Positions 5,292 through 35,288 of a stretch of DNA of 64,000 bases are shown piece by piece. A program made the translations under genes and the position numbers. Position 1 is the first letter of the stretch; each line of letters begins with the position of its first letter. Where the stretch lies: the sequence record PZ540767.1. One strand, given 5' to 3'. The notes beneath the pieces were generated by a model that was not told where the DNA came from, did no database searches, and was given only the letters and a program-made list of their open reading frames with translations. This stretch comes from a phage.

Positions 5292-6368
5292 ATGGCTATT
5301 AGACTGCAACAAATTGCTGCACCTAACTTTGCTGGTTCTAACCAATTACTGCTGGCAGCAAACCAGCAGATTGGTAATGCTCTCCAGGGGCTACAAGGCA
5401 CCCTGGGGCAGTATCGTGATGAAGTAGTACGCCGTAATACAGCTCAGGCTGTAGGACTGCTTACTGGGGCTACAGATGCTAATGATCTGGCCCAGCGTCA
5501 ACAGCAAGTAGCACAGTTGGTTCAGCAAGGGGATATTGACCCCACTCGTGTATCTGAAGTGGCAGCAACCATGCCAGATACTTTGTTAGGACGTCAGACT
5601 AATCAGCTAAAGCTGAACCAGATTCAGACTGCACAGCATGATGCACCATTAATGGGTGCTTATATGCAAGCTGTTATGTCTGGGGATCAGAATGCAGCTA
5701 AAGGTATTTTGTCGCAATTCCAGGGGGATGCTTCAGATGCTCTGAAGTTTGCCTCTGATTGGGATATCAAAAACCAGCAGTTGAATCTTCAACGGTCTGA
5801 ACTGGCACAGCGTCAAGCTCAGTTTGCTGCAACTCAGGCAGCAGCTAAGGCAAGAGCCGGGCAGAGTAATGCACTGCTTAAAGCCTTACCTGGTTTGCTT
5901 AACACAGGTAATGATATTCAGGGGAAGGCTGAAGCCAGGGATTTACAGGCTAATGCTCAGGATGCTCAACAACGTGTTGCTATGGATCCTATAAACAACC
6001 CTAAGCTTAATGTTGCTGGGTGGGCTGATGCTAACAGTGATGTTTGGTTTAGGGGCTGGGGAAGACAGGCAGACTCTGACAGAATTTTTAATGCTCTGAA
6101 GGATCAACCAGCTTTTAAAGCACTTAATCCTCAACAGCAGATAAATATCCTAGACGGTGCCCTTGCTAATGAAAACTCCCGCGAAGATAAGGGAAATGTT
6201 TCTACTGTAAATGCTGCTACTAAGTATCTGACTGATGCAACGAAGCGCTTAAATACCCTGAAGATTACTTCACGGCAAGCAGAGGATGCAAAAGATCAGC
6301 AATCTGTTATGCAAGAGCAAAGGGATCGTTTAAATAAGCTGCTTCTGCCCTTACTTTTCCAACAGTAA
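5292..6368 (+). CDS. Gln/Ala-rich coiled-coil protein (358 aa), virion module
   Basis: ORF; stop overlaps start of the giant ORF (ATGA-type coupling geometry). Confidence 0.6.
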   Translation: MAIRLQQIAAPNFAGSNQLLLAANQQIGNALQGLQGTLGQYRDEVVRRNTAQAVGLLTGATDANDLAQRQQQVAQLVQQGDIDPTRVSEVAATMPDTLLGRQTNQLKLNQIQTAQHDAPLMGAYMQAVMSGDQNAAKGILSQFQGDASDALKFASDWDIKNQQLNLQRSELAQRQAQFAATQAAAKARAGQSNALLKALPGLLNTGNDIQGKAEARDLQANAQDAQQRVAMDPINNPKLNVAGWADANSDVWFRGWGRQADSDRIFNALKDQPAFKALNPQQQINILDGALANENSREDKGNVSTVNAATKYLTDATKRLNTLKITSRQAEDAKDQQSVMQEQRDRLNKLLLPLLFQQ

Positions 6369-15300: not shown

Positions 15301-17050
15301 CAATCCTCATCATGACTTACGTGCGGTTGAGTCGGGGAGTGCAGATGAAGCAGCACTGGTGAACATGGGATACCAAAAAGTATCCCCACTGTCCCAGGAC
15401 TCTTTGTCAAAACACTCTGGACGTGTACTGTATGTGACCAAAGAGAATGGGTATCAACGAACCGTCTCTGGTACTTTCAGTTTAACTGGAAGCCAGCGTA
15501 AAGGTTCTTCCCTAAGTGGGGATCGTGCTGTTGCTGATCGTGTTCGAGCTGACGAGTTAGAACAGTTAAGGCAAGCGTCCTATGCAGACGTGCGAGGGCG
15601 TGAAGCACTGTCCCACACTGCCTTTGATCCTACTCAGATCCAGGATAACCATGTAGTGCCTGTATTAAGCACTGATGGTCATATCATGGACTTCCGTTAC
15701 ATGGCTACCCACAATACTCGTGACACGTTCCTTGATCGTAATAATGACTTTGCTGACCTTGTTGGTCGTCTGGCTGGTCAGAATATCGATAAGGGTGATG
15801 CCCCAAGCCAGAATGCTAAGATCCTGGAAGCTCTGCATGAAGACTCTAAGGCTAATATCCTGAAGAATCCTAATGCTTACTTTGAGATTGGGCCTAATGC
15901 ACCTACTGAGCGAGGACGTGAGATCTGGGCAATGATGCCTTATGAAGCACGTACTAAAGCTACTTCTCTGTGGGGTGCTGATCGTATGTATATTCGAAAC
16001 GATCTGGTTAACCTTACTTTTGGCTTCCGTAAGTATTCACTGGCTAACATTTTTGATGTTGATCCAGAACAGCGTAATATTGCTCAGGGTGTTGCTGCTG
16101 GTTTACTTGAAGCTGCTTTTGGTGATAAGGCTAAAGCTTATGTAATTAAGGGTGAGCGTGGCATTCAGGAATTTATGCAGTCCTATAAGGACGTGATCGT
16201 TATTCGTAACCTGAAAACCCAGTTCAGTAATATTATGTCTAATACTGCTCTACTGGCTGCTTATGGCGTTAACCCGGTACGTATGGTTAAAGATATCCGT
16301 ACTGCTCTGGTTGCTGGGATTGACTACCGTAAACAGTACTCGCTGCTACTCAAGTATCAGCAACAGCAACGTGCTGGTATTGGTAACTTTGCTCAGATGG
16401 AGTCCCTGATCAATGAGACGCAGGATCGCTTGAATGCTAACCCTCTGGCTAAGTTTATTCAGGCAGGTATGATGCCTACCATCGTAGAAGACGTTCAGCC
16501 TGATGCTGATGGTTACACTTATGGTTCTAAGATCCGTAAGAAATTTAATGAGGTATCTGCCCATCTGCCAGCTTCTGCTGTAACAGCTGCTCGCTGGGCT
16601 GTGATTGATAAAGGTACTGCACCTCATAAATTCTTAAGTGATGCTGCTCAGTTCAGTGACTTTGCTGCTAAGTATGCTCTGTATAAGCACCTGACAGAAC
16701 ATGCCCGAGATCGCCTGAGTCATACTGAGGCTTTACAACGTGCATCTGATGCTTTTGTTAACTATGACATTCCAGCTACAGCTACTCGCCAATATCTGGA
16801 TGATATGGGGATTACCATGTTTACGAAGTATCGTGTTCGTATCCAACGTGCAATGTTCTACTTGATGGATAAACGTCCAGCATCTGTTATGGCACATATG
16901 GCAATTACAGGGCAGTTTACTCATGCACCTGATGCTATGGAGCCACTGTTTGCACGTAACTTAGGTAACCCATTCACACCTTCAGTATTGCAGGGTGGGA
17001 GTTTGTTGAATGTCCCAATGCCTTGGAACTTATTCAGAATGGCATACTAA
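6368..17050 (+). CDS. Giant virion-associated RNA polymerase (vRNAP-like, 3560 aa)
   Basis: Single uninterrupted 10.7-kb ORF; size class matches N4 vRNAP (~3500 aa); sits at the end of the structural operon; followed by a strong terminator. Confidence 0.8.
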   Translation: MRLQSGYSTILRNTQMAGNSSPLDKFLVPQQVTGQEAAQALPAPTQPTIAQRVNDASTRILNNLTGQGMYPTEEGEIARLKRINNEQSAYAKEVAAKDSDYGWSSTNFLDPETSSLTDRTASTFVNYGKALTDAVNGLAGKTDKTFKTLGNVLDQASIPNDALDAYRRVQAGKGTEADNALLDRQGAWWTQPIEVNQYGVPEMGNQTLRQRLDAINERQKTQNQSSYDNLEKLANPVQMQQAAADIEKSIEGKSGLDKFAAGLAAIARNPGAAGQTMVESAPYMVGGIPGMLASSAMQGGSVLSQYLDTQRKASDGQIPTAKDVAIGTGLGVVDGALNFAESIINRTAMLPGSKVLPAGVADRLVNAAQRIAPRSSTAAAALARVTAPTLDLAKNALTEGLVSGAQNQIEENYAKGKNEWDTKGNDVAFFQGIAAATGFGAPRAALSTAGEVANTAAQAMQKRTEAQDPVGQAARNTTPEDLMNPQSEGYNPAAAIRRAGMEWTRNTDATTDEQKAEIQSQAQSAMDAAQNDHQNNLDMINQRATAERTLADAGKFIPAIQERLDQLSNDPNADPDAVNQLQTILAQQTEARDAAQQQLDAMPSQEELAQSATRSAEVLDQAKSEFGKFSSATGMNTNTAKPENPTASDIISHPMSYTNEDLQEFVRNAPANATPAELGTLRALADAKVAENAVKTGSKVNSEIFKSTSNNLSLGDYQQGINTAVQAGDTNRIQSLMTGINNFETSHTAKADIAQQYLNEAKQNGKSYQILKTSNGWELNTGKRLDAKAQAKNGGFTIHKGSTGLVNNIVNEAKAITATRQYMEGIATPSTNQNVTGSTEQVASPEAQPEGAATVAGETGAQEQQAQPTISPLTTRDIRAMDQATLEKVMATTQQAMSSDTNPVLARNLDALDREWTRRADVATNQNRGVDAPHRKLDDSFKPKAQENEIQRSQAETTTQTEHTQADIDNESTGSESQQTAPVNVDDVVTNTDTLTETQQDNVAHGALSIFGKVGESLKALREKALAEPKGLQNLVLTGFNQRVRPGFGSPLVAVKDFINTLKTAVDTGSFTEVNRFLKQHISESKAEGAKQKALLKQFVEFHDHITANLDNIIRTKAPEYRYQDFAQFILDENGNFDSNTKTGIAAGIFSWLGENGDKMFLNQSEVAKTLRIKEDQLTPQAMSRMADIGYRQDLIMSQLGQRIYQAMGFAKRADVDPNRASKLQNALGAYALHAMYSNGYMEQSLMTAKEYFDLQTMGLDEQSAKEAAQAFQNDFGVSPNDAKHKIVFSRPARNFDAEGKPVAIEAISDIKNGMKDTRSLMSKLFGYDPAVREVLTTKPAGFKQKVFGKMNREVPSVLAARISKAMQYDYTIDQGVVNAMRTMSTVDNAALQHIFGVRTDADVPNEMEIFKKGREAKNADIQRSMEMGLDFANRRGTNPFWMPMEVWTNQRIGDLASEFNPQGSKVHRAMGGLSAHQVEISVARNAPVLDADGKPTQYGLFLVSLAQGMEEAPVIGADGKKLKSVDKQTYATFLPAFQNYLRKPENIKAVRAMQKVIAGSATTADTNVIKNAVAEYGMNGQSFAALHNLAQYATALESGKSSVKLLAQMESDGVTNGPILTNILNGSADFDLLKRGGIYREGDNITNMPTYRELGGQDYYELLGDAMRQHWADYKTNAPASQQGQIQALEYFSTGYGARSKAKTLATPFNYSAGIPALKAAMGRATVEDVYSKIGSLIPLAKSNNKADFAKAYAEVSKNLSVLLGQKVNLPRTADGLVKFSLNPAQTKRIIDVDSQTRGVATETAVNEVAADFIASRDANTSLVNTTFTLANLRYNAAKAALLKKRIAEGKIPVDAKGAPLEGLTQADLDKLSRMIPNMPSATGVLSENTKASGYPMAKVEKAFTAKSPATSIDIYFKEAANPKPAMDANGMLLSQGLVGGYKSTQSTVTETKLTNPGVAMGANVTQGTDAAISSDVISKIESQNVHDANILSPDNVLKGARIQNKAMFDAVVSYHPQHLAASALLTEVRSLAGANLSTNDKVAAKKALEAMKTKILGKDFKGNMKAALNTILNQAYDRDIKKLETLSEVYAVNQYGTEGGEYLITDTDRKKIGDEIARLKRSRAAGLQRISAMFSKGNAPKAEANQYPDKMRQYLYEASASTGSVSASEVMARTKGKFANPVYNELHNLISGLIPADAVVNVLDGQTMPKNVKGQSLPQNRDAIAWSYQDKNTAQVNLSLSKEASPEVLLHELTHIALGRAIATADSNPKVKAVLARTEKLMGRVTKLVSADPQLTQKFAPALANVDEFISWGMTNPEFQRYLDTITGVPEISGRNRGWLGTAFKQFVDQMSGIFAAVTGRAINARVTTALEALTFDTAHLVQAINPTAIESPVSSISHPMSNTNSAADQVAKFSHVDIFDNLASTGGKTNSAQFTGNLRNVISTVADQLYGALGSRVTQNANENYTPGQVWNEAVATGKAPVSTEALSNGFVLTNQEAFAVEAIEAAVSESLASGFTSPVNREIRRTWQAAKQSLKPEDFHNGNWNQATQAEKRAAQQKWNYLFDVTNDSGESQHLSRFVAMAIGHEDTSNLLGFQMEDGKDSGNTAFEQATAYFNQAVNTVSGMLTNTHQGQAANARAQALAEKLIQIELKNRDTTMNILTGGIDKVENALDTAAAKSKQFLGKIVKATGIDQSSNNALNAMGKVAGLAARDQLGSLKETIKEFRDFNAPSTPEGSLASILTEATNADDVRALHESLLRSTKRIEQDRATLAAVTAKNLNEMFDNNGQDLTKEDRTAMTYSLLRTDLQSVLHIEGMNLNNLHKLVSNTGYRKQQINNLEKTISQYANGNDKIIRAKALGFWMATGRNTLGRDLVLNAKAIATGAATHYSTVGIEPTLDEVNAIDALASMYALSYTKTENRVRTAAVMERELARGKDNGIKMLMATYANLIEDSANTLFAGNQLSRIKGYLPEDTNPHHDLRAVESGSADEAALVNMGYQKVSPLSQDSLSKHSGRVLYVTKENGYQRTVSGTFSLTGSQRKGSSLSGDRAVADRVRADELEQLRQASYADVRGREALSHTAFDPTQIQDNHVVPVLSTDGHIMDFRYMATHNTRDTFLDRNNDFADLVGRLAGQNIDKGDAPSQNAKILEALHEDSKANILKNPNAYFEIGPNAPTERGREIWAMMPYEARTKATSLWGADRMYIRNDLVNLTFGFRKYSLANIFDVDPEQRNIAQGVAAGLLEAAFGDKAKAYVIKGERGIQEFMQSYKDVIVIRNLKTQFSNIMSNTALLAAYGVNPVRMVKDIRTALVAGIDYRKQYSLLLKYQQQQRAGIGNFAQMESLINETQDRLNANPLAKFIQAGMMPTIVEDVQPDADGYTYGSKIRKKFNEVSAHLPASAVTAARWAVIDKGTAPHKFLSDAAQFSDFAAKYALYKHLTEHARDRLSHTEALQRASDAFVNYDIPATATRQYLDDMGITMFTKYRVRIQRAMFYLMDKRPASVMAHMAITGQFTHAPDAMEPLFARNLGNPFTPSVLQGGSLLNVPMPWNLFRMAY

Positions 17051-27602: not shown

Positions 27603-28361
27603 TTATGACTTGGTGAGTGCTGCCCAGCTAACCGGGAACAGAGGTTCCACAATAGCTGCTACAGCATGGGCCAGATCCTGAATTTCCTGCTGTGCATGAG
27701 AATCAGAACGCTTGTTGAAGAAATTAGCAAAGGCCAGCAAGTTACCTGTCCAAATCCAGTTAACCATAGCACCTTGAGGCAGTACGAAACGTGCTTGCTC
27801 AGGGGCAACACCATCTTCAATCATCTTCTCATAAAGAGCTACTGCCTCTTGAGTATGGTAGATGTATTGGCGTTTCCAGTAGTCGTTTGCTTCATGGATA
27901 CCAGCACTACCTTGCTTGATTGAGCCTTCTGGTTTCTGGCGGAATTCAGGGATGAAGATCTCAGGAGTACTGCTGATATAACGACGAGACTCTTCATTCT
28001 CAACCAGTCCCTGCTTATGTTTGAAGCACTGGGTACGGATAGGAATTGGAGCCTTCATACGCAACGTGATTGCAGTATGGGCAAATGGTGTCCAGTGAAC
28101 AGCCTGATGACGGATACGATCATAAAGCCATTCTGCTTCTTCTTTGCCAGAAGTAGAGTAGTTATCTGATCCCTCTTGGATCATGTTGATAATTACAGCT
28201 TTATCTTTACTGGTTACACCATTAGCCAGGAAACGGATAAGACTGGCATCCTGTTCAGGGGTAGTGACCTTTTTCAGTGGGCCAAATGAAATACGAGCTA
28301 CATCTACTACACGTTGATCATCACCCATGTGATCAATGTACTCTGCTACTTGTTGGATCAT
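27603..28361 (-). CDS. thyX: Flavin-dependent thymidylate synthase (ThyX-like)
   Basis: 'EESRRY' and 'RSDSHAQQEIQ' resemble ThyX signature segments. Confidence 0.5.
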   Translation of the reverse strand: MIQQVAEYIDHMGDDQRVVDVARISFGPLKKVTTPEQDASLIRFLANGVTSKDKAVIINMIQEGSDNYSTSGKEEAEWLYDRIRHQAVHWTPFAHTAITLRMKAPIPIRTQCFKHKQGLVENEESRRYISSTPEIFIPEFRQKPEGSIKQGSAGIHEANDYWKRQYIYHTQEAVALYEKMIEDGVAPEQARFVLPQGAMVNWIWTGNLLAFANFFNKRSDSHAQQEIQDLAHAVAAIVEPLFPVSWAALTKS

Positions 28362-28443
28362 TATACTTACCTCAGTAAAGGGCTATGCTGCCCATTGTTT
28401 AAAAAACAGTTATCATGTCTGTATTCATATACAGGAGACTCCC

Positions 28444-29163
28444 ATGAATATTCGAACCACTAAGGTAGATGTGTACCTGGTTAATCCAGATGGATCGCCA
28501 GCTACTAATTTACGTTTTTACGTTAAACCATTGCGAGCAAGCTTCTGGTCAACCTACCCAGGGGTTGCTATAGATGTGGAGCTTTGTGAAACTACGGACA
28601 GTACAGGGCATTGTATTTTAGATCTCGTTGCTCTGCCTTATCCATATGAGCTTACCTATGATGACTCTGATGATTCAATCCCTGGTAGCTTCTTGTTCTA
28701 TGTCCCGGATGTAGACTTCACAGTTAATTTCCAGGATCTGATCGTTACCCGAGCTGATTCTCAGGATAAGTATGTAGATAATGCTCTTAACCAGATTATT
28801 GATGGTGTGGTTAAATCTAAGCATTATAGCGAAGTGGCTCAAGCAGCTTCTGAAGCTGCGAAGCAAGCGGAAGAAGCCATTGAGACACAAGCTCAAGTAC
28901 TCGCACCACAGATTACACAAACTGAACAGATGTTAACAGAAGCTCAAGAGGCTTTGACTGAAGTTCAGCAAGCCAAATCAGACTTTGAAAGTACCAATGC
29001 TTCCATTGTTACTGCTGCGGGTATTATTCAAAACAGTGCTATTACTGGAAAGTTACCTATTGGGGAATACACCCTCTGGGTTGATGCTGATGGATTACTT
29101 CGTATTATCCATGGCAACCCAACAGGGGACAAAGATGGGGTTGTTGTGGGATCTCAATCATAA
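28444..29163 (+). CDS. Tail-fibre-associated protein with coiled coil (240 aa)
   Basis: Internal ATG 28444 after aggag RBS; divergent from thyX; precedes tail fibre gene. Confidence 0.55.
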   Translation: MNIRTTKVDVYLVNPDGSPATNLRFYVKPLRASFWSTYPGVAIDVELCETTDSTGHCILDLVALPYPYELTYDDSDDSIPGSFLFYVPDVDFTVNFQDLIVTRADSQDKYVDNALNQIIDGVVKSKHYSEVAQAASEAAKQAEEAIETQAQVLAPQITQTEQMLTEAQEALTEVQQAKSDFESTNASIVTAAGIIQNSAITGKLPIGEYTLWVDADGLLRIIHGNPTGDKDGVVVGSQS

Positions 29164-29241
29164 CGGGTAATTTCGATAGCCTTATAGTAAGATCTTCCAT
29201 TAAGATTAGGGTAGTGACTTATTTTTGATGGGAGATCTTCT

Positions 29242-31479
29242 ATGTCTTGTAATTGCACCAACAATTGCAATTGTGGTGATCCATGTTCAGATACCCAGAT
29301 TCGTCGCATTGTTGATGATGCTGTAGCAGACCGCGTAGAGGACTTGGAAGGTATTGCTTCTGACGCCCAAGGTTCTGCTACTGCTTCTGCAAACTCTGCA
29401 AACCAATCTGCACAATCTGCTACACAATCACAGCAATTTGCAACCACTGCTGGTAACAATGCCACTTCTGCTGCCCAGTCAGCACAGCAAGCTGCTGTAT
29501 CTGCTACTGCTGCGGCTGAATCCGCGTCAGCAGCTGTTCAGGTTACTACTGGTTTAAAACAAGTAGCTGATGAGCTGACTGCTACTGCTTCTGGTTTATC
29601 TTCTAAGGTTGATCAGGCAAACCAGAATGCTGAATTAGCTGAGACTGCTCGTGATGAGGCTGTTGCTGCTGCTTCCAGTGCTCAAAATAGTGCTGCTACT
29701 TCCACAGCATCTGCCAGTGCTGCTAATGTGGCTGCTTCGGCTGCTGCTTCGTCGTCAGGCACTGCACAAACTGCTGCGGGTCAAGCAGGTGAGTACGCTG
29801 TACAAGCTGCTGAGTTAGTTTCTAATCTTGATACTAAGATTGATACTGCTGTATCTACTGCACTGGATAATGCAACCGAAGATGTAATTAATGCTGCTAC
29901 TGAACAGGCTACTTCAGCTGCAAACTCTGCATCTGCTGCTGCCAGTTCTTTAGAAACTATGTCCAGCACTCTCGCAGCTGCAACTACTAGTGCGGTTGCT
30001 CAAGCTACTGAAGATGCTGAAGCTGCACGAGATGCTGCTGAGTTAGCTCGTGATCAGGCTAATGCAATAGCAACCTCTGTGGGACTGGTGCCTGATGAGG
30101 CTACTGGTTTAGCAAATACCACTGAAGGGCAGTATTTTACTGTAGGTCAGGGTACAGAATCTGATGCTGCAACTATCACCTACCGTAATGTTGGCGGGGT
30201 TGCTGTGCCAGTATTTACTTCTGTGGGTACGGCTGCTTTTACCAAACTGTCTACTAAGTTCTTAAACCTGGTAACCCAGGTAGACTATGGAAATGCTGTT
30301 GCTGGTTTTATCGATGATGCAAACATGTCTCCTCTGTTTATTAATCCAGAAGGGTATGTGATCATTAACAACCTCAATTTCCTTGAGCAAGTGCAAGCTC
30401 TGCTTAATAAAATTGATGCTTTCTATAACTTCTTTAATAGCTATCCATCTGATGAGTATGTCCAGAAGGGTGGCTTTATTGATGATGAAGGCAAACTTCC
30501 CCTGTACTTTGACCAGTATGGGGATGTTTGGTTGGGTGATGGCCCGGTTAACCTCAGCAAATTTGTGCAGGATTACTCAGCACTGGTTACTAAGGTTAAT
30601 GATGCAGTTTATGAGATCAATGGAACAGGTAATATTGTCTGTCATGGTGACTCATTAACTGCTGGTGCAGGTTCTGCTACAGGTCGTGGGTATGTTGAAC
30701 GTTTACGTACTCGTCTTGCCCCACAGGGTATTACTGTAACTAAACGTGCTGTAGGTGGGCAGGGTGCCCAGGCTATCGCTACTCGACAAGGTGGTTATGT
30801 TAACCTGTTAACGCTGGAGAATAACATTCTTCCTGCTGCTGTTCAGCCAGTTAACATTGTATCCAGTTCCCAAAATCCAATCACCAGCCAAGGTGGTGGG
30901 CCTATCTCAGGTATGCTTAATGGTATTCGTGGTACTGTAGCTGCTACTTTCAATGGCACTACCCGCCTTACTTATACCTTTACCCGAGCAGAGGCTGGAA
31001 CTGCTGATGTCTATATTGATCCTGAATCTCCGTTTATCAAAACTGAAGACGGTCATGAATACGATATTGACATTATCTGGCTTGGTCGTAATAACACCTC
31101 AAGCCCTGACTTGGCTCAAATTTGTTTAGATGCTCTGGATGCTTGTGTTAAGCATCTTAAAGCTAAAAATAAACGTTTTGTGGTAATGTCCATCCTCAAT
31201 GGTGCGTACTCCACTGAGTACAAGGGAGGCGAGGTTTACCAGCGTATTATTAATGCAAACAATGCCATTAAGTACAAATACCCTGAGAACTATTTGGAAG
31301 TTCGTGGGCCATTGGTGCGTTCTTATAACCCATCTGTTCCTCAAGATGTGGTTGATTTTAACAATGATATTGTTCCTTCAAGTCTCCGTAATGATGCTAT
31401 CCACTTAAATGACAGTGGGTATGATATCCTTGAAGAACTGGTTTACAACTTTTTGAAAAGTAAAGGATGGGTAGCCTAA
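29242..31479 (+). CDS. Tail fibre/spike with C-terminal SGNH (GDSL) hydrolase domain
   Basis: Cys-rich N-terminus 'CNCTNNCNCGDPC'; long Ala/Ser-rich coiled coil; 'CHGDSLTAGAG' GDSL motif in C-terminal third. Confidence 0.6.
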   Translation: MSCNCTNNCNCGDPCSDTQIRRIVDDAVADRVEDLEGIASDAQGSATASANSANQSAQSATQSQQFATTAGNNATSAAQSAQQAAVSATAAAESASAAVQVTTGLKQVADELTATASGLSSKVDQANQNAELAETARDEAVAAASSAQNSAATSTASASAANVAASAAASSSGTAQTAAGQAGEYAVQAAELVSNLDTKIDTAVSTALDNATEDVINAATEQATSAANSASAAASSLETMSSTLAAATTSAVAQATEDAEAARDAAELARDQANAIATSVGLVPDEATGLANTTEGQYFTVGQGTESDAATITYRNVGGVAVPVFTSVGTAAFTKLSTKFLNLVTQVDYGNAVAGFIDDANMSPLFINPEGYVIINNLNFLEQVQALLNKIDAFYNFFNSYPSDEYVQKGGFIDDEGKLPLYFDQYGDVWLGDGPVNLSKFVQDYSALVTKVNDAVYEINGTGNIVCHGDSLTAGAGSATGRGYVERLRTRLAPQGITVTKRAVGGQGAQAIATRQGGYVNLLTLENNILPAAVQPVNIVSSSQNPITSQGGGPISGMLNGIRGTVAATFNGTTRLTYTFTRAEAGTADVYIDPESPFIKTEDGHEYDIDIIWLGRNNTSSPDLAQICLDALDACVKHLKAKNKRFVVMSILNGAYSTEYKGGEVYQRIINANNAIKYKYPENYLEVRGPLVRSYNPSVPQDVVDFNNDIVPSSLRNDAIHLNDSGYDILEELVYNFLKSKGWVA

Positions 31480-32255
31480 TGGGTAACTTCATTAAAATGG
31501 GCACTACGCTGAGTAATGCCAACCTGACTAAATTAACTGCTGATGCGACCATCGATAACAGCACTGTAATGCTGATTGACTTTGGGCGTAAAACTTCAGT
31601 GCCTAACCAAACAGATCTGGTTAACGGTGATACTGTTGGCAACCTGGTTGAAGGTCAAGCAGGGGGTTCTGTAATTACCGGAACCAAATTCCTCTTCTCT
31701 GCTGCTGGTAAGTACATTACTAAGCAAGAAGGCGATATCTCAACCCGAATCCAGTTGCCTGATGTTTGTAAGGTTAAATCTACTGATCGTAGCTTCCAAT
31801 TTAGCCTGTGGTTTACCCACATTGATAAAACGGATACTCAGGGTAGCCAAGCATTGGGTGGTTATGCATCTAACTCCAGTAACCAGATGCCTTTTGCATT
31901 TTACTGGTATGATGGTCAATACAACTTGGGTTGTGCTGGTTCACGTACTGCATTTGCTACTCCAGCGGCGGGAACAGTACACCAGTTGTCTGTTGCTTGT
32001 GACCTAGATCTGGGTATTCGTAAGTTCTATCACAACAATGAACTGATCCGTACTGAGACTAATATTGGTCTTAGTGAAATGACTCAGCCTGCTGCTGGAT
32101 CTCTGCCTTGGTTGTTCTACCTGGGTGGTGGTTTTAACAGCCGTGGTAACGTTAAGATGCACCGAGCATGGCTTGATATTAACGGTGGTGGTGCTAAGTT
32201 CGATGCAAAAGTAGCTGCGGACTACAACACCAACTACAGCCGATTTGCGGCTTAA
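31479..32255 (+). CDS. Beta-rich protein, possible receptor-binding/lectin-like partner of the tail fibre
   Basis: ATG overlaps upstream stop (TAATG); aagga RBS; Gly/Ser/Thr/Asn-rich. Confidence 0.5.
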   Translation: MGNFIKMGTTLSNANLTKLTADATIDNSTVMLIDFGRKTSVPNQTDLVNGDTVGNLVEGQAGGSVITGTKFLFSAAGKYITKQEGDISTRIQLPDVCKVKSTDRSFQFSLWFTHIDKTDTQGSQALGGYASNSSNQMPFAFYWYDGQYNLGCAGSRTAFATPAAGTVHQLSVACDLDLGIRKFYHNNELIRTETNIGLSEMTQPAAGSLPWLFYLGGGFNSRGNVKMHRAWLDINGGGAKFDAKVAADYNTNYSRFAA

Positions 32256-32272
32256 GTTAGTAACTTAGAACT

Positions 32273-32298
32273 AAGCCCCTTTATTAGGGGCTTTTTTA
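32273..32298 (+). terminator. Intrinsic terminator (partial), before lysis cassette
   Basis: aagcccct-ttatt-aggggctt hairpin followed by TTTT. Confidence 0.55.
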
Positions 32299-32313
32299 TA
32301 TATGAGGTTTATT

Positions 32314-32802
32314 ATGAAAATGTCGAATGAAGGACGCAAAGTAACTAAGTATTTTGAGTCCCTTAAATTACGTGCTTACCCTGATCCTGCTACTGGGGGT
32401 AAACCATGGACTATTGGGTATGGTCATACTGGCCCAGATGTTTATCCTGGTTTGGCAATTTCGCAAACCAGAGCTGAACAGTTGCTTGATGCTGACCTTG
32501 CTAAGGCTGAAGCAGAAGTAAACAAGTATGGGCATAACCTTACCCAAGGTCAGTTCGATTGCCTTGTGGACATGGTATTTAATATGGGATCTGGTTTTAT
32601 CCGGCCTGACAACATCAAGGGTGATTTTGATGACTTTGTTGCATCGGGTAATACTGCTGAGATGCGTAAACGTATTCCTCAATTCCGTATGGCCAACGGT
32701 AAAGTTATGAGAGGTTTAGTACGTCGTCGTGCTGCTAACCTTGCTACATGGGACGGTAAGTCTGGTGATGAAGCAATTAAAATAGGGGTAAATGCTGCAT
32801 GA
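32314..32802 (+). CDS. Endolysin, T4-lysozyme-like (GH24)
   Basis: 'ESLKLRAYPDPATGGKPWTIGYGH' matches the T4 lysozyme E-D-T catalytic region ([21 protein letters not shown]). Confidence 0.8.
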   Translation: MKMSNEGRKVTKYFESLKLRAYPDPATGGKPWTIGYGHTGPDVYPGLAISQTRAEQLLDADLAKAEAEVNKYGHNLTQGQFDCLVDMVFNMGSGFIRPDNIKGDFDDFVASGNTAEMRKRIPQFRMANGKVMRGLVRRRAANLATWDGKSGDEAIKIGVNAA

Positions 32803-33020
32803 AACTTGTAGAAAACTGGAAGTCAGCATGGAAGTGGTATTCTGTGCATATTATGGTAGTGATCGTTGCACTTCCTGAAATCTGGAGTTACTTTCCACAG
32901 GAGTTTAAGGATTCATTACCTCCACATGCTCTTGCTGGATTAACAACTTTCCTGGGTATCTCAGCGATTGTTGCTCGTCTGGTTTCTCAGGAGAAACGTA
33001 ATGATCAAGGATCTAATTAA
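32799..33020 (+). CDS. Putative holin (73 aa)
   Basis: ATG overlaps endolysin stop (ATGA); one or two hydrophobic helices; position between endolysin and spanins. Confidence 0.45.
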   Translation: MKLVENWKSAWKWYSVHIMVVIVALPEIWSYFPQEFKDSLPPHALAGLTTFLGISAIVARLVSQEKRNDQGSN

Positions 33021-33510
33021 ACAGTATGCTGTTTTGTTAGGTTCTGTTCTGGCCCTGGCTTTACTTGCCGGGGCTTGTTACTTAACCTATGTTGTAACAG
33101 ATAACCACTGGTCTGCTAAGTATTCTGGATTAGAACAGAAGTATAGTGATGCTTCTGCCAAAGCTACTCAGGAGGCCAGAGTCAAAGAATGGGAGTACCA
33201 AAACAATGTTGATGCAATCGCACAGCAAGGGGCTAAAGACCTCGCACAAGCTCGCTCTGACGCTGATATTGCCAATGCTTCTGTTAGCAGGTTGCAGCAA
33301 CGGATCAACCGTTTACTTGCCAACACCAGCTCCGAAGATTCCGGCACTACCCAAAGAGGCAAGACAGCCAGAGAAGCCCTCGATCTGCTTGCCAACGTGC
33401 TCGAAAAATCTCTCGAACGAAACAGACAGTTGGCTGACTACGCCGACAAAGCCAGTAGTGCTGGATTCACCTGTGAAAAAGCCTACGACGCCATCCAATC
33501 AGGCAAGTAA
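33001..33510 (+). CDS. i-spanin (Rz-like)
   Basis: Internal ATG 33001 after aggag RBS; N-terminal TM helix then coiled-coil periplasmic domain. Confidence 0.6.
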   Translation: MIKDLIKQYAVLLGSVLALALLAGACYLTYVVTDNHWSAKYSGLEQKYSDASAKATQEARVKEWEYQNNVDAIAQQGAKDLAQARSDADIANASVSRLQQRINRLLANTSSEDSGTTQRGKTAREALDLLANVLEKSLERNRQLADYADKASSAGFTCEKAYDAIQSGK

Positions 33511-33535
33511 TACTAAGTTGGTTTATTTCGTATAA
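33206..33535 (+). CDS. o-spanin (Rz1-like lipoprotein) overlapping i-spanin in +1 frame
   Basis: Signal peptide with lipobox 'LLAGC', Pro-rich mature region; embedded in or overlapping the Rz gene. Confidence 0.55.
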   Translation: MLMQSHSKGLKTSHKLALTLILPMLLLAGCSNGSTVYLPTPAPKIPALPKEARQPEKPSICLPTCSKNLSNETDSWLTTPTKPVVLDSPVKKPTTPSNQASNTKLVYFV

Positions 33536-33586
33536 ACCAGTAGAATGATGTACATTAACTAGACTTTTCATGAAGAGGAAACACCT

Positions 33587-34030
33587 ATGTCTAAAGTCCC
33601 CTCTATCGGTGCTGGTGTTATCACTACCGATGATGTGCTGGCACAAGGCTATGATTTTATCCCCCTGAAAATGGGTGGTATGGCTAAAGTGCCTGCTGAT
33701 GTAGCCGCTGCTCAATCTAAAGACGTCACTGGTGCTGCTTATACTAAACCAGCAGCTCTGAGTCTGACTACTGATCTGACTGCTACTAAATCTGTTGCTG
33801 AAGGTGCTGCCCTGGAACTGAAAGTAGTTCCTGCTGGCGGTGTTGCACCTTACAGCGTTACCTGGTTTAAAGGTGGCTCTGCTATCCAGACTCTGGGTAG
33901 TTCTACCCTTAACCTGGGTGCAGCTACTCTGGATATGGCTGGCTCTTACCATGCTGAAGTCTACGACGCAGCTGGTAAAGAGATTCAGTCTACTACCTGC
34001 GTAGTGACTGTCACTGAAGCTGGTGGTTAA
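33587..34030 (+). CDS. Ig-like (Big-type) domain protein, candidate capsid decoration protein
   Basis: gaggaaa RBS; 'YSVTWFKGGSAIQ...AGSYHAEVYDAAG' Ig-like signature; own terminator downstream. Confidence 0.55.
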   Translation: MSKVPSIGAGVITTDDVLAQGYDFIPLKMGGMAKVPADVAAAQSKDVTGAAYTKPAALSLTTDLTATKSVAEGAALELKVVPAGGVAPYSVTWFKGGSAIQTLGSSTLNLGAATLDMAGSYHAEVYDAAGKEIQSTTCVVTVTEAGG

Positions 34031-34048
34031 TAGCTACCAGCATGAATA

Positions 34049-34073
34049 AGCCCCCATTTGGGGGCTTTTTTAT
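34049..34073 (+). terminator. Intrinsic terminator
   Basis: agccccc-attt-gggggct hairpin followed by TTTTTT. Confidence 0.65.
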
Positions 34074-34254
34074 TACCCTGTTAAACCTAAAAGGTTATCA
34101 GGATCCTTTACCGCCGTATCTTTGATAAAGGCAAAGGGAACGATGATCTTCCCGAAATGGAAGGCATTAGCACTTTCTACAATTTTATTTGCTTTGAAAG
34201 TGAGTGCACCATTATTTCTGAAAAAGATAGTTATCTCAGCTGGAATTTTGTCTG

Positions 34255-34485
34255 TCATAGAGAGGCAATCCTGTGAGTTGCAGCCCTGATACGACTAATA
34301 CGCTTAGTGTGTATTGTCTCATTTCTGTCGTAGCCTCGGGCATTTCTACGAATGGTTTCACACTCTGCCCTATAGGCAGGAGTCTGAGTTTGTTTTTGTA
34401 GGATCTTAGAACATTTAGAGTGAACTCGTTTATTTCGTAAGATCCCACAGATTGGACATACGTTAAATGTTGGACTGAAAATCAT
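34255..34485 (-). CDS. Small basic Cys-containing protein (possible zinc ribbon), coupled to dam
   Basis: ATG overlaps dam stop (ATGA); 'CPICG...HSKC' motif. Confidence 0.35.
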   Translation of the reverse strand: MIFSPTFNVCPICGILRNKRVHSKCSKILQKQTQTPAYRAECETIRRNARGYDRNETIHTKRISRIRAATHRIASL

Positions 34486-35288
34486 GGTTTTAGTACAGCA
34501 ATGATATCTTTGGCTACTTCTCGTGATTCAGCTTTAGCTGAGATGCTACGAGTTGCAGTTAATGGGTGAATGTCAAAACCAGCTTTGGTATAGAGATCAA
34601 CTAAACGTGGAGCACTACTATTTGTAATGACCACTCTTACACCTCTGGCTTTAAGCTCAAGAGCTTTACCTACCAGACGTTTCTGATCTCCCCACTTAAA
34701 GCTGGTGCCACTATAGCTTGTGAACCCCTGATGTTTAGGCATAGGCTCATAAGGTGGATCACAAAATACAACATTACCTTCCTCAGCAGTGTTCATAAAT
34801 AACATGAAGTCTGTATTTGCTACTGTTGGTTTCAAACCAGAATTGATGAAATCTCTGAGTTCCTGTTCAGGGAAGTAAGGTTGTTCTTTCTGGCCCCAAG
34901 GAACATTGAATTCCTTTTTCTTGTTGTAACGACACAGGCCATTAAAGCCAGTACGATTGAGCACCAGGAAGAACACGGCTTTAGACAGGGAATTGAACTT
35001 ACCACTGTTAAAGTTAGCCCTGAGCTGATTGTAGCGAGCTTCTGAGTTACACCACTCATGCAGTTTCTTTGCCTGGTTCAATACATAATCACCATTATGG
35101 ATGAGGGCTAAGTAGAGCTGGCATAGATCAGGATTTACATCATTGATAGCCACCTTATCGAAACCAGCATTCATAAATACTGATCCTGCACCCACAAAAG
35201 GTTCAATGAGACGATTACCAACTAAGAATGGTTGGATTTGAGGAAGCTGGCGATACTTGCCACCTGCCCACTTAAGCCAAGGTTTCAT
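34482..35288 (-). CDS. dam: DNA N6-adenine methyltransferase (Dam-like)
   Basis: 'KWAGGKY' N-terminus, 'EPFVGAGSVF' AdoMet motif, 'FCDPPY' catalytic motif. Confidence 0.8.
   Translation of the reverse strand: MKPWLKWAGGKYRQLPQIQPFLVGNRLIEPFVGAGSVFMNAGFDKVAINDVNPDLCQLYLALIHNGDYVLNQAKKLHEWCNSEARYNQLRANFNSGKFNSLSKAVFFLVLNRTGFNGLCRYNKKKEFNVPWGQKEQPYFPEQELRDFINSGLKPTVANTDFMLFMNTAEEGNVVFCDPPYEPMPKHQGFTSYSGTSFKWGDQKRLVGKALELKARGVRVVITNSSAPRLVDLYTKAGFDIHPLTATRSISAKAESREVAKDIIAVLKP

What the first reader, a model, noticed from the sequence alone, without database searches (positions are those of the whole stretch)
28444..34073. Plus-strand island with esterase-bearing tail fibre, lysis cassette and Ig-like protein inside the minus-strand replication block
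Between thyX and dam (both minus strand) a + strand island encodes a fibre-associated protein, a 745-aa fibre with a Cys-rich N-terminus and a C-terminal SGNH/GDSL hydrolase motif ('CHGDSLTAG'), a beta-rich partner, endolysin, holin, overlapping Rz/Rz1 spanins and a separately terminated Ig-like protein. The SGNH domain suggests the fibre deacylates a surface polysaccharide as receptor-modifying activity. The island position separates host-range and lysis genes from the main structural operon, which may favour modular exchange.
Basis: partly seen in the sequence, partly recalled or inferred. Interest (0 to 1): 0.5.

Follow-up and report, generated by a model that had tools for sequence, protein, structure and literature searches.

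The report
Esterase tail fibre cassette, N4-like phage
This is the standard host-attachment, lysis and head-decoration gene block of a Klebsiella N4-like phage, in which the usual capsule-cutting spikes are replaced by a mosaic tail fibre ending in an intact sugar-deacetylating (SGNH) enzyme, plus a small lectin-like partner protein of unknown role that goes with that enzyme in many unrelated phages.

Summary
A + strand block at 28444-34067 lies between thyX and dam, both on the - strand. It encodes a 239-aa adapter, a 745-aa fibre, a 258-aa partner, an endolysin, a holin, overlapping Rz/Rz1 spanins and a Hoc-like Ig protein.

The window is a Klebsiella N4-like phage resembling Efbeekayvirus, 92-95% identical in DNA to FBKp27, P184 and relatives. 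The island is a fixed feature of Efbeekayvirus and Cbunavirus. Pectobacterium phage Possum has the same gene order, and its fibre was shown by experiment to deacetylate O-polysaccharide.

Only 28398-32265 is new relative to deposited phages. The fibre is a chimera:
- aa 1-135 form a genus-specific, Cys-rich docking module that goes with one adapter allele.
- aa ~275-745 and the partner gene are shared with SU10-like, T7-like, lambda-like and P2-like phages.

All SGNH catalytic residues are present (S471, G505/506, N617, D718, H721), and the predicted fold matches GDSL and acetyl-xylan esterases. The closest solved relative is the epsilon15 tailspike esterase domain.

The least ordinary part is the partner. 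It has a ConA-like jelly-roll fold, belongs to no named family, and lies directly after this esterase module in all 9 contexts that could be read.

Verdict: a new member of a known kind, of modest interest.

The parts
27603..28361 (-). thyX (flavin-dependent thymidylate synthase). Left flank of the island; conserved backbone ends at 28397.
   Evidence: Homologous loci carry PF02511 Thy1 at this position. Annotated as thymidylate synthase in FBKp27 and BM327-1.2. Backbone homology to relatives ends at window 28397.
28444..29163 (+). Fibre adapter/collar protein, 239 aa. N-terminal beta-barrel, then coiled coil, then a short beta-rich C-terminus. This is allele A of a gene conserved across Schitoviridae.
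   Evidence: - 42% identical over its full length to the Possum gp67 connector, E 6e-55.
- PDB 9COD (DEV gp53 N-terminal barrel plus coiled coil), E 8.5e-9 over aa 6-190.
- phrog_20500 'tail protein', E 5e-34, N-terminal 186 positions only.
- 86-87% identical to BM327-1.2 and L010, but 44-45% to the other deposited Efbeekayvirus phages.
29242..29650 (+). Fibre N-terminal docking module, aa 1 to about 136. Cys cluster MSCNCTNNCNCGDPC followed by an Ala/Ser/Gln-rich helix.
   Evidence: - 80-97% identical to the N-termini of at least 7 otherwise unrelated fibres in Efbeekayvirus-like phages.
- DNA homology to BM327-1.2 and L010 ends at 29634-29673.
- It is found only together with adapter allele A.
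29242..31479 (+). Tail fibre, 745 aa. Mosaic of docking module, unique coiled coil (aa ~140-265), shaft-distal beta/helix domains (aa ~275-460) and a C-terminal SGNH esterase.
   Evidence: ORF with a GGGAG ribosome-binding site. phrog_11419 'tail fiber protein', E 2e-42. Sliding-window identity profile.
30619..31476 (+). SGNH/GDSL esterase domain, aa 460-745. Catalytic residues S471 (block I), G505/506 (II), N617 (III), D718/H721 (V). A beta-strand insertion of about 110 aa lies between blocks II and III.
   Evidence: - Pfam Lipase_GDSL_2, 33.3 bits against a gathering score of 32.9.
- Motif positions and their conservation.
- Model pLDDT mostly 82-96 in this part.
- Foldseek matches to GDSL esterases, acetyl-xylan esterases and TesA.
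- phmmer to 9sij/9sim, E 1e-9, aligning N617, D718 and H721.
31479..32255 (+). Fibre partner, 258 aa. ConA-like/LamG jelly-roll with a conserved N-terminal peptide and a C-terminal helix. Translationally coupled to the fibre gene through a TAATG overlap.
   Evidence: - No Pfam, NCBIfam or PDB sequence hit; phrog_19357 'unknown function'.
- Model pLDDT 70.5, pTM 0.77.
- BFVD matches are ConA-like lectin proteins of phages.
- It always lies directly after the esterase module.
32273..32293 (+). Intrinsic terminator closing the receptor-binding cassette. Conserved backbone resumes at about 32266.
   Evidence: AAGCCCC-TTTATTA-GGGGCTT followed by a T run. Megablast homology to relatives starts at window 32266. 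A terminator is annotated at the equivalent site in FBKp27.
32314..32802 (+). Endolysin, 162 aa, GH24 phage lysozyme with no signal-anchor.
   Evidence: PF00959, E 8e-30. phrog_7. Start chosen by homology to the 162-aa homologue gene called in L006.
32799..33020 (+). Holin, 73 aa, two hydrophobic segments.
   Evidence: PF25612 DUF7940, E 4e-22. phrog_1356 'holin', E 5e-23.
33001..33510 (+). Rz-type i-spanin, 169 aa, with an N-terminal transmembrane segment.
   Evidence: PF10721 DUF2514, E 4e-25. phrog_312 'Rz-like spanin', E 3e-40. Start at MIKDLIKQ as in the homologues.
33206..33535 (+). Rz1-type o-spanin lipoprotein in the +1 frame. It starts inside Rz and ends 25 nt after the Rz stop. Lipobox LLAGC, proline-rich mature part.
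   Evidence: phrog_11621 'Rz-like spanin', E 6e-23. Sequence and coordinates. The start could be 33206 or 33212.
33587..34030 (+). Hoc-like Ig-domain capsid decoration protein, 147 aa.
   Evidence: phrog_4069, E 5e-20. Weak Pfam Ig_3/Ig_2 hits. PDB 'Decoration protein' 8zvi at E 7e-15 and 5lxk at E 4e-14. Annotated as Hoc-like in FBKp27, Tribble and Possum.
34048..34067 (.). Terminator at the convergence of the + island and the - strand block.
   Evidence: AAGCCCCC-ATTT-GGGGGCTT followed by a T run. FBKp27 annotates terminators on both strands at the equivalent site.
34482..35288 (-). dam (D12-class DNA adenine methyltransferase). Right flank, separated from the island by two small - strand ORFs at 34073-34485.
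   Evidence: PF02086 in homologous loci. Annotated as a DNA adenine methylase in FBKp27 and BM327-1.2.

Best explanation
The region is the late adsorption, lysis and decoration module that is fixed between thyX and dam in Efbeekayvirus and Cbunavirus N4-like phages. In this phage it carries a recombinant receptor-binding cassette.

**Proposed mechanism**
1. The 239-aa adapter forms the collar around the tail through its N-terminal beta-barrel and projects a trimeric coiled coil. This is inferred from homology to DEV gp53 and Possum gp67.
2. The 745-aa fibre trimer docks onto the adapter through its Cys-rich, helical N-terminal module. This is inferred from strict co-occurrence of adapter allele and fibre N-terminus.
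3. The fibre's C-terminal SGNH domain is an active O-acetyl esterase. It removes acetyl groups from the host O-antigen or capsule, giving reversible, enzyme-assisted binding and passage through the polysaccharide layer without depolymerising it. All catalytic residues and the fold are shown. The activity and the substrate are inferred.
4. The translationally coupled 258-aa ConA-like protein is a dedicated partner of this esterase module. Most likely it is a lectin-type subunit that supplies the carbohydrate-binding tip which this fibre lacks. Alternatively it is the fibre's folding chaperone.
5. After the terminator at 32273, the endolysin, holin and the two spanins lyse the cell, and the Ig-domain protein decorates the capsid.
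For: **Backbone and island**
- The backbone is 92-95% identical to Klebsiella Efbeekayvirus phages. Only 28398-32265 has no DNA match in the deposited phages.
- The same island order is found in FBKp27, Tribble and Possum.
- Possum gp66 deacetylates O-polysaccharide, and gp67 was proposed as its connector (PMC9569702).

**Adapter and docking**
- The adapter is the gp67 orthologue and is homologous to the DEV gp53 barrel plus coiled coil, which forms a 15-mer collar (PMC11445570).
- Adapter allele A and the Cys-rich fibre N-terminus occur together in 5 of 5 loci: the window, BM327-1.2, L006, L007 and L010.
- Allele B (44-45% identical) occurs in the other deposited Efbeekayvirus phages, and none of them matched the fibre N-terminus.

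**Esterase domain**
- Pfam Lipase_GDSL_2 scores above its gathering threshold.
- S471, G505/506, N617, D718 and H721 are conserved across the GDSL-type homologues and in remote homologues.
- The SGNH fold is predicted with pLDDT mostly 82-96 and matches GDSL and acetyl-xylan esterases.
- Blocks III and V align with N937, D1035 and H1038 of the epsilon15 gp20 petal, where S787A and H1038A abolish deacetylation.
- Esterase receptor-binding proteins are established in Schitoviridae and in Klebsiella phages.

**Partner**
- The start overlaps the fibre stop as TAATG.
- The predicted fold is a ConA-like jelly-roll.
- All 71 family representatives are standalone proteins of 247-289 aa, apart from one 90-aa fragment.
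- In 9 of 9 readable contexts the partner lies 0-4 nt after, or overlapping, a gene that ends in this same esterase module.

**Lysis and decoration genes:**
Against: - Nothing here was tested biochemically.
- The Pfam match barely passes (33.3 against 32.9 bits) and covers only the block I region.
- The closest solved relative aligns over the C-terminal half of the domain only.
- The substrate is unknown: capsule O-acetyl, O-antigen O-acetyl or another ester.
- The host is inferred only from relatives. The distal module's nearest deposited relative is in an E. coli phage.
- Co-occurrence of the adapter allele with the fibre N-terminus could reflect simple linkage of adjacent DNA rather than physical interaction.
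- The partner model is of moderate quality (pLDDT 70.5), and a ConA-like fold does not prove sugar binding.
- No virion proteome is available for this phage.
- The fibre shows no BLAST similarity to Possum gp66, so the functional analogy rests on the domain family and the architecture, not on orthology.
Confidence: 0.75

Rival explanations
1. The 258-aa partner is a tail-fibre assembly chaperone, functionally like P2 gpG or Mu/lambda Tfa. It is needed only to fold or trimerise the esterase fibre and is absent from, or only loosely kept on, the virion.
For: - It lies immediately downstream of the fibre gene with translational coupling.
- In a P2-like baseplate operon (V, W, J, I) the esterase fibre and its partner occupy the gpH and gpG slots.
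- It is always a standalone protein and is never fused to a fibre in any of the 71 representatives.
- A fibre-plus-chaperone module shared across phage families has a precedent in Alteromonas schitovirus A5 (PMC10579305, abstract seen).
Against: - No similarity to any known Tfa/Caudo_TAP family was found.
- The fibre ends in a globular enzyme domain rather than in a beta-structured tip of the kind that usually needs a chaperone.
Confidence: 0.35
2. The SGNH domain is a non-catalytic or vestigial binding domain. The fibre only binds its receptor and does not modify it.
For: One fibre with the same N-terminal module (P0012) aligns 'NGRF' where the others have 'GDSL', so degenerate versions may exist in this group. 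The Pfam score is marginal.
Against: - In the window protein, and in the other homologues that carry this C-terminal esterase module, all four SGNH blocks are intact, including the Ser-Asp-His triad.
- They remain intact at about 30% identity in sipho- and myophage homologues. This argues for selection on catalysis.
Confidence: 0.08
3. The enzyme is a lipase or lysophospholipase-type SGNH hydrolase that acts on lipid esters of the outer membrane or LPS lipid A, not on polysaccharide O-acetyl groups.
For: The Pfam family is named GDSL-like lipase/acylhydrolase. TesA (thioesterase/lysophospholipase L1) is among the structural matches.
Against: - Every phage receptor-binding protein with an SGNH domain tested so far is a polysaccharide O-acetylesterase or a pNP-acetate esterase: G7C gp63.1, Possum gp66, the epsilon15 gp20 petal, Moo19/B2 and Klebsiella prophage fibres.
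- The closest solved relative by sequence is the epsilon15 petal.
- Acetyl-xylan esterases are equally good structural matches.
- A fibre tip far from the membrane fits a polysaccharide substrate better.
Confidence: 0.07

Closest known systems
Pectobacterium phage Possum (Cbunavirus, Schitoviridae): gp67 connector plus gp66 polysaccharide-deacetylating tail fibre (PMC9569702)
   Same: - The island is identical in order: thymidylate synthase | adapter, esterase fibre, endolysin, holin, Rz/Rz1, Hoc-like | DNA methylase.
- The adapter is an orthologue: 239 aa in both, 42% identity, E 6e-55.
- Both fibres start with a Cys motif followed by a helical segment and carry an SGNH domain.
   Different: - The fibres show no BLAST similarity.
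- In gp66 the SGNH domain is central and is followed by a C-terminal receptor-binding domain. Here it is at the very C-terminus.
- Here a separate 258-aa lectin-like gene follows the fibre. Possum has no gene between gp66 and the endolysin.
- The host genus differs.
Salmonella phage epsilon15 tailspike gp20 'petal' esterase domain (PDB 9sij/9sim; bioRxiv 10.64898/2026.07.31.742079)
   Same: - It is the closest solved relative by sequence (E 1e-9).
- It has the same C-terminal SGNH architecture, with a beta subdomain inserted between blocks II and III.
- The block III Asn and block V Asp/His align with the tested catalytic residues.
- It deacetylates O-antigen.
   Different: - Only the C-terminal half or so of the domain aligns by sequence.
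- In epsilon15 the domain protrudes from a beta-helix endorhamnosidase tailspike. Here it ends a coiled-coil fibre that has no depolymerase.
- The assignment of the PDB entries to epsilon15 is my inference. Both chain lengths equal the published constructs plus 34 residues, and the numbering places N937 correctly.
Pseudomonas phage DEV long tail fibre gp53 (PDB 9COD; PMC11445570)
   Same: - The N-terminal beta-barrel plus coiled coil of gp53 is homologous to the 239-aa adapter (E 8.5e-9).
- gp53 also carries a carbohydrate-esterase-like domain, recognises O-antigen and is dispensable on rough strains.
   Different: - DEV has a single 1090-aa polypeptide. Here the anchor and the enzymatic fibre are separate genes.
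- The 15:12 collar model comes from DEV and has not been verified for this genus.
E. coli phage G7C gp63.1/gp66 branched esterase tailspike (Prokhorov et al. 2017, as cited) and Shigella phages Moo19/B2 (PMC11654681)
   Same: These are N4-like phages whose receptor-binding proteins are O-antigen O-acetylesterases. B2 uses a two-protein esterase complex, gp48/gp49.
   Different: - No gp66-type Tail_spike_N domain (PF18668) was found in any protein of this cassette. It is present in the FBKp27-type spike that this cassette replaces.
- 4QNL was not among the top structural matches.
- The attachment logic differs: a gp67-type adapter rather than gp66 branching.
E. coli phage Ptacy1537 (Ahphunavirus, T7-like): tail fibre plus 'putative neuronal pentraxin-1'
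   Same: It is the only deposited phage with the same distal cassette. The fibre C-terminal 470 aa are 49% identical and the downstream gene 64% identical, in the same order.
   Different: The N-terminus is a T7 gp17-type anchor (PF03906). The genome type is unrelated. Neither protein has been characterised.

Membership tests
SGNH/GDSL hydrolase superfamily | Block I G-D-S-(L) with the nucleophilic Ser | tested here: met
   GDSL at aa 469-472, so the Ser is S471. It is conserved in all 13 GDSL-type homologues aligned and in remote homologues.
SGNH/GDSL hydrolase superfamily | Block II Gly and block III G-x-N Asn (oxyanion hole) | tested here: met
   VGGQG at 504-508 and GRNN at 615-618, both conserved. 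N617 aligns with the epsilon15 gp20 block III Asn.
SGNH/GDSL hydrolase superfamily | Block V D-x-x-H (catalytic Asp and His) | tested here: met
   DAIH at 718-721. D444 and H447 of the alignment's first sequence are nearly invariant. They align with the D-x-x-H of 9sij/9sim.
SGNH/GDSL hydrolase superfamily | Three-layer alpha/beta/alpha SGNH fold | tested here: met
   AlphaFold model with pLDDT mostly 82-96 over the domain. Foldseek probability 1.0 to GDSL esterases, acetyl-xylan esterases and TesA, target TM-score 0.63-0.76.
SGNH/GDSL hydrolase superfamily | Pfam gathering score for Lipase_GDSL_2 | tested here: met
   33.3 bits against a cut-off of 32.9, so it passes only marginally. The matched stretch is aa 467-515.
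SGNH/GDSL hydrolase superfamily | Esterase activity on acetyl esters or polysaccharide | not testable with these tools
   This needs recombinant protein, a pNP-acetate assay and NMR of host polysaccharide.
Schitoviridae gp67-type adapter plus enzymatic fibre adsorption apparatus (Possum type) | Small conserved connector protein homologous to gp67, encoded directly upstream of the fibre | tested here: met
   42% identity over 237 aa, E 6e-55, in the same position and orientation.
Schitoviridae gp67-type adapter plus enzymatic fibre adsorption apparatus (Possum type) | Fibre with a helical N-terminus that pairs with the connector | tested here: inconclusive
   The adapter allele and the fibre N-terminal module co-occur in 5 of 5 loci against none of the other deposited genus members. 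Linkage cannot be separated from interaction, and no complex prediction was possible.
Schitoviridae gp67-type adapter plus enzymatic fibre adsorption apparatus (Possum type) | Fibre orthologous to gp66 | tested here: not met
   BLASTP finds nothing significant (best E 1.5). The fibre is an analogue with a different SGNH subfamily and domain order.
G7C-type branched tailspike (gp66/gp63.1) | gp66-type N-terminal particle-binding domain (PF18668 Tail_spike_N) | tested here: not met
   Absent from all three cassette proteins. Present in FBKp27 gp26.
Tail-fibre assembly chaperones (Tfa, P2 gpG, Caudo_TAP) | Sequence membership of a known Tfa family | tested here: not met
   The partner has no Pfam, NCBIfam or PDB sequence hit. 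Its only PHROG is 19357, 'unknown function'.
Tail-fibre assembly chaperones (Tfa, P2 gpG, Caudo_TAP) | Gene immediately downstream of its cognate fibre gene | tested here: met
   TAATG overlap here. The same adjacency holds in 9 of 9 contexts, including the gpG slot of a P2-like operon.
Concanavalin A-like lectin/glucanase fold (partner protein) | Jelly-roll beta-sandwich matching ConA-like, LamG or pentraxin domains | tested here: met
Two-component spanin (Rz/Rz1) | i-spanin with an N-terminal transmembrane segment, plus an o-spanin lipoprotein with a lipobox encoded in the +1 frame within or overlapping it | tested here: met
   phrog_312 and DUF2514 for Rz. phrog_11621 and lipobox LLAGC for Rz1. 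Rz1 starts inside Rz and ends 25 nt beyond it.
Hoc-like Ig capsid decoration proteins | Ig-like domain homologous to known decoration proteins | tested here: met
   phrog_4069 at E 5e-20 and phrog_2973 at E 9e-19. PDB 'Decoration protein' 8zvi and 5lxk at E 7e-15 and 4e-14. Capsid location was not tested.

The most novel reading that the evidence does not exclude
The 258-aa ConA-like protein would define an uncharacterised family of obligate partners for one subfamily of C-terminal SGNH-esterase fibres. The esterase+partner pair would be a self-contained, portable host-recognition cassette that has moved between podo-, sipho- and myophages, with only the N-terminal anchor of the fibre being replaced.

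In the strongest version, the partner is a virion-borne lectin subunit. It reads the acetylated or deacetylated glycan while the fibre edits it, giving a split 'writer-eraser plus reader' receptor-binding complex.
Probability: 0.4. Interest if true: 0.55.

Novelty: new member of a known kind. Interest (0 to 1): 0.35.

Why it matters
For Klebsiella phages, host range is usually explained by capsule depolymerases. This phage keeps an Efbeekayvirus backbone but carries only an esterase fibre and a lectin-like partner. It is therefore a natural example of the 'surface remodeller' strategy in a virulent N4-like phage.

The junctions are mapped to within about 20-50 nt (about 29650, 30060-30106 and 32265). 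This shows which pieces can be swapped when engineering host range: the adapter allele together with the fibre's first 135 residues form the platform-specific part, and the esterase plus partner form the portable part.

The partner family has no name or function in any library searched. It is always next to this esterase, which makes it a tractable target for co-expression, virion proteomics and structural work.

Apart from the partner, the region is an ordinary and already understood module.

Tried and rejected
- **Adapter against the FBKp27 gp26 N-terminus.** No similarity. The small protein is not a truncated gp66-like spike. It is a separate conserved gene, present in FBKp27 as a 44%-identical allele.
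- **The 258-aa gene downstream of the SASA-esterase fibre in L010.** It is the same length and in the same position, but it is not related to the partner by BLAST or by hhalign. The partner is therefore specific to this SGNH subfamily and not to esterase fibres in general.
- **Possum gp66 against the fibre.** No detectable similarity, so orthology was rejected.
- **NCBIfam scan of the adapter, fibre, partner and Ig protein.** Nothing meaningful.
- **PDB sequence search with the partner.** Nothing found.
- **Literature search for the Pan3 tailspike gp15 paper.** It is not in the library, so the role of the best viral structural match could not be read.
- **Exact-sequence look-up.** The fibre and partner of this window are not in the 15-billion-protein collection. 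Only the adapter is, on a 76,219-bp Logan contig.
- **Sigma-70 promoter scan.** Fewer hits than in shuffled sequence, so it is uninformative.
- **P0118 context.** The contig was too short to show the upstream gene, so it was not counted.

Full report
**1. What is in the sequence**

The window has a + strand block from 28444 to about 34067, between - strand genes. On the left is thyX (27603-28361). On the right are two small ORFs (34073-34485) and then dam (34482-35288). The genes in the block are:

| Gene | Coordinates | Size | Key evidence |
|---|---|---|---|
| Adapter | 28444-29163 | 239 aa | AGGAG 6 nt upstream |
| Fibre | 29242-31479 | 745 aa | Cys at 3, 5, 9, 11, 15; GDSL at 469-472 |
| Partner | 31479-32255 | 258 aa | ATG overlaps the fibre's TAA as TAATG; homologues are 256-258 aa |
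| Terminator | 32273-32293 | | |
| Endolysin | 32314-32802 | 162 aa | PF00959 |
| Holin | 32799-33020 | 73 aa | DUF7940/phrog_1356 |
| Rz | 33001-33510 | 169 aa | DUF2514/phrog_312 |
| Rz1 | 33206 or 33212 to 33535 | 109 or 107 aa | +1 frame, lipobox LLAGC, phrog_11621, ends 25 nt past the Rz stop |
| Ig-domain protein | 33587-34030 | 147 aa | see section 6 |
| Terminator | 34048-34067 | | |

**2. What genome this is**

- Window 8000-28397 matches Klebsiella phages FBKp27, P184, Tribble_ER49, pKP-BM327-1.2 and others at about 95% DNA identity.
- Window 32266-34100 matches the same phages at 91-95%. These are N4-like podophages of the genus Efbeekayvirus, family Schitoviridae. The window also holds the 3560-aa virion RNA polymerase at 6368-17050.
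- All these phages have the same + strand island between thymidylate synthase and the adenine methylase.
- So does Pectobacterium phage Possum of the genus Cbunavirus. Its order is adapter gp67, fibre gp66, endolysin, holin, Rz/Rz1, Hoc-like.

The island is a fixed, known feature of this lineage, not a peculiarity of this window.

**3. What differs: the receptor-binding cassette**

No deposited phage matches 28398-32265 at the DNA level. FBKp27-type phages carry other genes in this slot. They have a 228-aa adapter allele, an 861-aa spike with the gp66-type Tail_spike_N domain and a pectate-lyase beta-helix, a 615-aa second tail protein with a CBM, and two small ORFs. Here the slot holds the adapter, one fibre and the partner.

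*Adapter.*
- It is a full-length orthologue of Possum gp67 (42% identity, E 6e-55). The Possum authors proposed gp67 as the connector between the virion and the deacetylating fibre (PMC9569702).
- Its first 190 residues are homologous to the N-terminal barrel plus coiled coil of DEV gp53 (PDB 9COD, E 8.5e-9). In DEV this part forms a 15-subunit collar around the tail, from which five trimeric fibres emerge (PMC11445570).
- It exists as two alleles. Allele A (239 aa) is 86-87% identical between the window, pKP-BM327-1.2 and L010. Allele B is 44-45% identical and occurs in the other deposited genus members.

*Fibre.* A sliding-window comparison and DNA alignments show three segments.
- **aa 1 to about 135.** The Cys cluster and a helical Ala/Ser/Gln-rich stretch are 80-97% identical to the N-termini of at least seven otherwise unrelated fibres in Efbeekayvirus-like genomes.
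  - These include SASA-type esterases (PF03629: P0013-17, P0019), a GDSL type (P0018) and the fibre of more than 1140 aa in pKP-BM327-1.2.
  - Homology to BM327-1.2 and L010 stops at 29634-29673.
  - This module occurs only with adapter allele A: 5 of 5 loci, against none of the allele-B phages.
  - That fits a docking interface, although linkage of adjacent DNA would give the same pattern.
- **aa about 140-265.** A coiled coil found only in this phage and its 96%-identical relative P0001.
- **aa about 275-745 together with the partner gene.** This part is shared with several unrelated phages:
  - SU10-like podophages of 72 kb (74% DNA identity over 30106-32224);
  - a 62-kb phage carrying an SU10-type adaptor gene;
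  - T7-like Ahphunavirus phages such as E. coli phage Ptacy1537 (fibre 49%, partner 64% identity).

**4. The esterase domain**

- Pfam Lipase_GDSL_2 is just above threshold (33.3 against 32.9 bits).
- All four diagnostic blocks are present: S471, G505/506, N617, D718 and H721. They are conserved in every GDSL-type homologue aligned. They are also conserved in homologues at about 30% identity from sipho-, myo- and temperate phages.
- The AlphaFold model of aa 275-745 has pLDDT mostly 82-96 over the enzyme domain. It matches GDSL esterases, acetyl-xylan esterases and TesA with Foldseek probability 1.0 and target TM-score 0.63-0.76. The alignments are about 280-315 columns long against targets of about 200 residues. 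This reflects a beta-strand insertion between blocks II and III.
- The closest solved relatives by sequence are 9sij and 9sim, both named 'Tail spike protein' (E 1e-9). I assign them to the epsilon15 gp20 petal domain for two reasons:
  - Both chain lengths equal the published constructs, gp20(734-1070) and gp20(248-1070), plus 34 residues.
  - That offset places the aligned Asn at N937, the published block III residue.
- In that protein, S787A and H1038A abolish deacetylation of O-antigen galactose. The domain also has a beta-barrel inserted in the same place.
- Esterase receptor-binding proteins are established in N4-like phages (G7C, Possum, Moo19/B2; DEV carries an esterase-like domain). 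Klebsiella prophage fibres also show esterase activity.

The activity and the substrate (capsule or O-antigen) remain inferred.

**5. The partner protein**

- It has no Pfam, NCBIfam or PDB sequence match. Its only PHROG is a family of unknown function.
- The model (pLDDT 70.5, pTM 0.77) is a jelly-roll beta-sandwich with a C-terminal helix.
- BFVD matches are phage 'ConA-like lectin/glucanase' proteins.
- A profile search of 1.84 billion representatives found 71 members. All are standalone proteins of 247-289 aa, apart from one 90-aa fragment.
- I could read nine distinct contexts. They are N4-like, two SU10-like, T7-like, a lambda-like siphophage downstream of gpJ, a P2-like baseplate operon, a temperate phage next to a lysis cassette, one unclassified phage and the window itself.
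- In every one, the partner follows, with 0-4 nt spacing or an overlap, a gene whose product ends in this same esterase module (hhalign probability 100%, E 1e-42 to 1e-68).
- The unrelated SASA-esterase fibre of L010 is followed by a different 258-aa protein. The association is therefore specific to this esterase subfamily.
- Partner identity tracks esterase identity across lineages.
- The pair is clearly a functional unit, but two roles remain open:
  - A virion-borne lectin subunit would supply the binding tip that this fibre lacks, since the fibre ends in the enzyme. Possum gp66 and DEV gp53, by contrast, continue into receptor-binding domains.
  - A dedicated chaperone is the alternative, because the partner occupies the gpG slot in the P2-like operon.
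- I favour the lectin-subunit reading slightly, on fold and size. The tools available could not decide between them.

**6. Lysis and decoration genes**

These are conventional and 91-95% identical in DNA to relatives.
- The lysis genes are a GH24 endolysin without a signal-anchor, a small two-transmembrane holin, and an overlapped Rz/Rz1 pair.
- The Ig-domain protein matches Hoc-like PHROGs and solved 'Decoration protein' chains 8zvi and 5lxk (E 7e-15 and 4e-14). It is annotated as head decoration in relatives.

**7. The modular-exchange idea**

Exchange is real and sharply bounded, but the unit is the cassette and modules within the fibre gene, not the island. The same esterase+partner cassette sits inside ordinary structural operons in other phage types. 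The island position is therefore not what makes it mobile. In L010 the endolysin has also been replaced: homology resumes only at 32797, and the replacement is 157 aa with no Pfam hit.

**8. Verdict**

- The architecture is a known kind: a gp67-type adapter plus a deacetylating fibre in Schitoviridae, and SGNH receptor-binding proteins in Klebsiella phages.
- This is a new member of that kind, with a new chimeric fibre. The exact fibre and partner sequences are absent from a 15-billion-protein collection.
- The part worth following up is the uncharacterised, strictly esterase-linked, ConA-like partner family.

Noticed in passing
window 29242-29290; L001 1-40; L013 around 7531 (- strand): A short N-terminal Cys cluster recurs in the fibres or spikes encoded right after gp67-type adapters. 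Here it is MSCNCTNNCNCGDPC, with all five Cys conserved in the six relatives whose N-termini were read. FBKp27 gp26 has MHNGCSPC and Possum gp66 has CNCEPWNC. Each is followed by an Ala/Ser/Gln-rich helix. It may be a metal or disulfide lock at the adapter-fibre junction.
   Followed up: partly
L010 5001-8726; proteins P0013-P0019: In Efbeekayvirus-like genomes, the same N-terminal docking module carries several different esterase types (SASA PF03629 and GDSL PF13472/PF00657). This adapter allele therefore seems to be used mostly by deacetylase fibres rather than by beta-helix depolymerases. L010 also has a different endolysin (157 aa, no Pfam hit).
   Followed up: partly
OP413827.1 (L003/L004), record positions about 76003 to 3419 across the origin: The receptor-binding gene of pKP-BM327-1.2 is not annotated in GenBank. 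It spans the record origin and reads as two overlapping ORFs of 1140 and 377 aa. This suggests a frameshift or a sequencing error in a spike of about 1470 aa.
   Followed up: partly
protein P0012 (914 aa), alignment A1 columns 830-845: This fibre has the same docking module and an epsilon15-like C-terminal esterase region, but it aligns 'NGRF' where the others have the block I 'GDSL'. It may be a catalytically dead variant, or the alignment may be wrong there.
   Followed up: no
window 28336-28443: An upstream in-frame ATG at 28336 would give a 275-aa product that overlaps thyX on the opposite strand. One NCBI nr entry in the adapter cluster (DAE61151.1, 275 aa) appears to use such a start. 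The 239-aa start at 28444 has the ribosome-binding site and is the length of all the other listed members.
   Followed up: partly
L006 5203-5922, L010 4203-4922 (precomputed Pfam labels): The adapter homologues are labelled PF26986 'Cap_depo' in the precomputed hits. This family was not reported by the local Pfam scan of the adapter, so its definition could not be checked.
   Followed up: no
L019 2366-4792: In a P2-like prophage or myophage, the esterase-module protein (543 aa) and the partner homologue (263 aa) lie after baseplate genes V, W, J and I. That is the position of tail fibre H and chaperone G. A second conventional fibre gene (PF12571, Collar) follows them.
   Followed up: partly
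window 6368-17050: A 3560-aa ORF on the + strand is the giant virion RNA polymerase typical of N4-like phages. It is followed by a switch to the - strand at about 17.3 kb.
   Followed up: no
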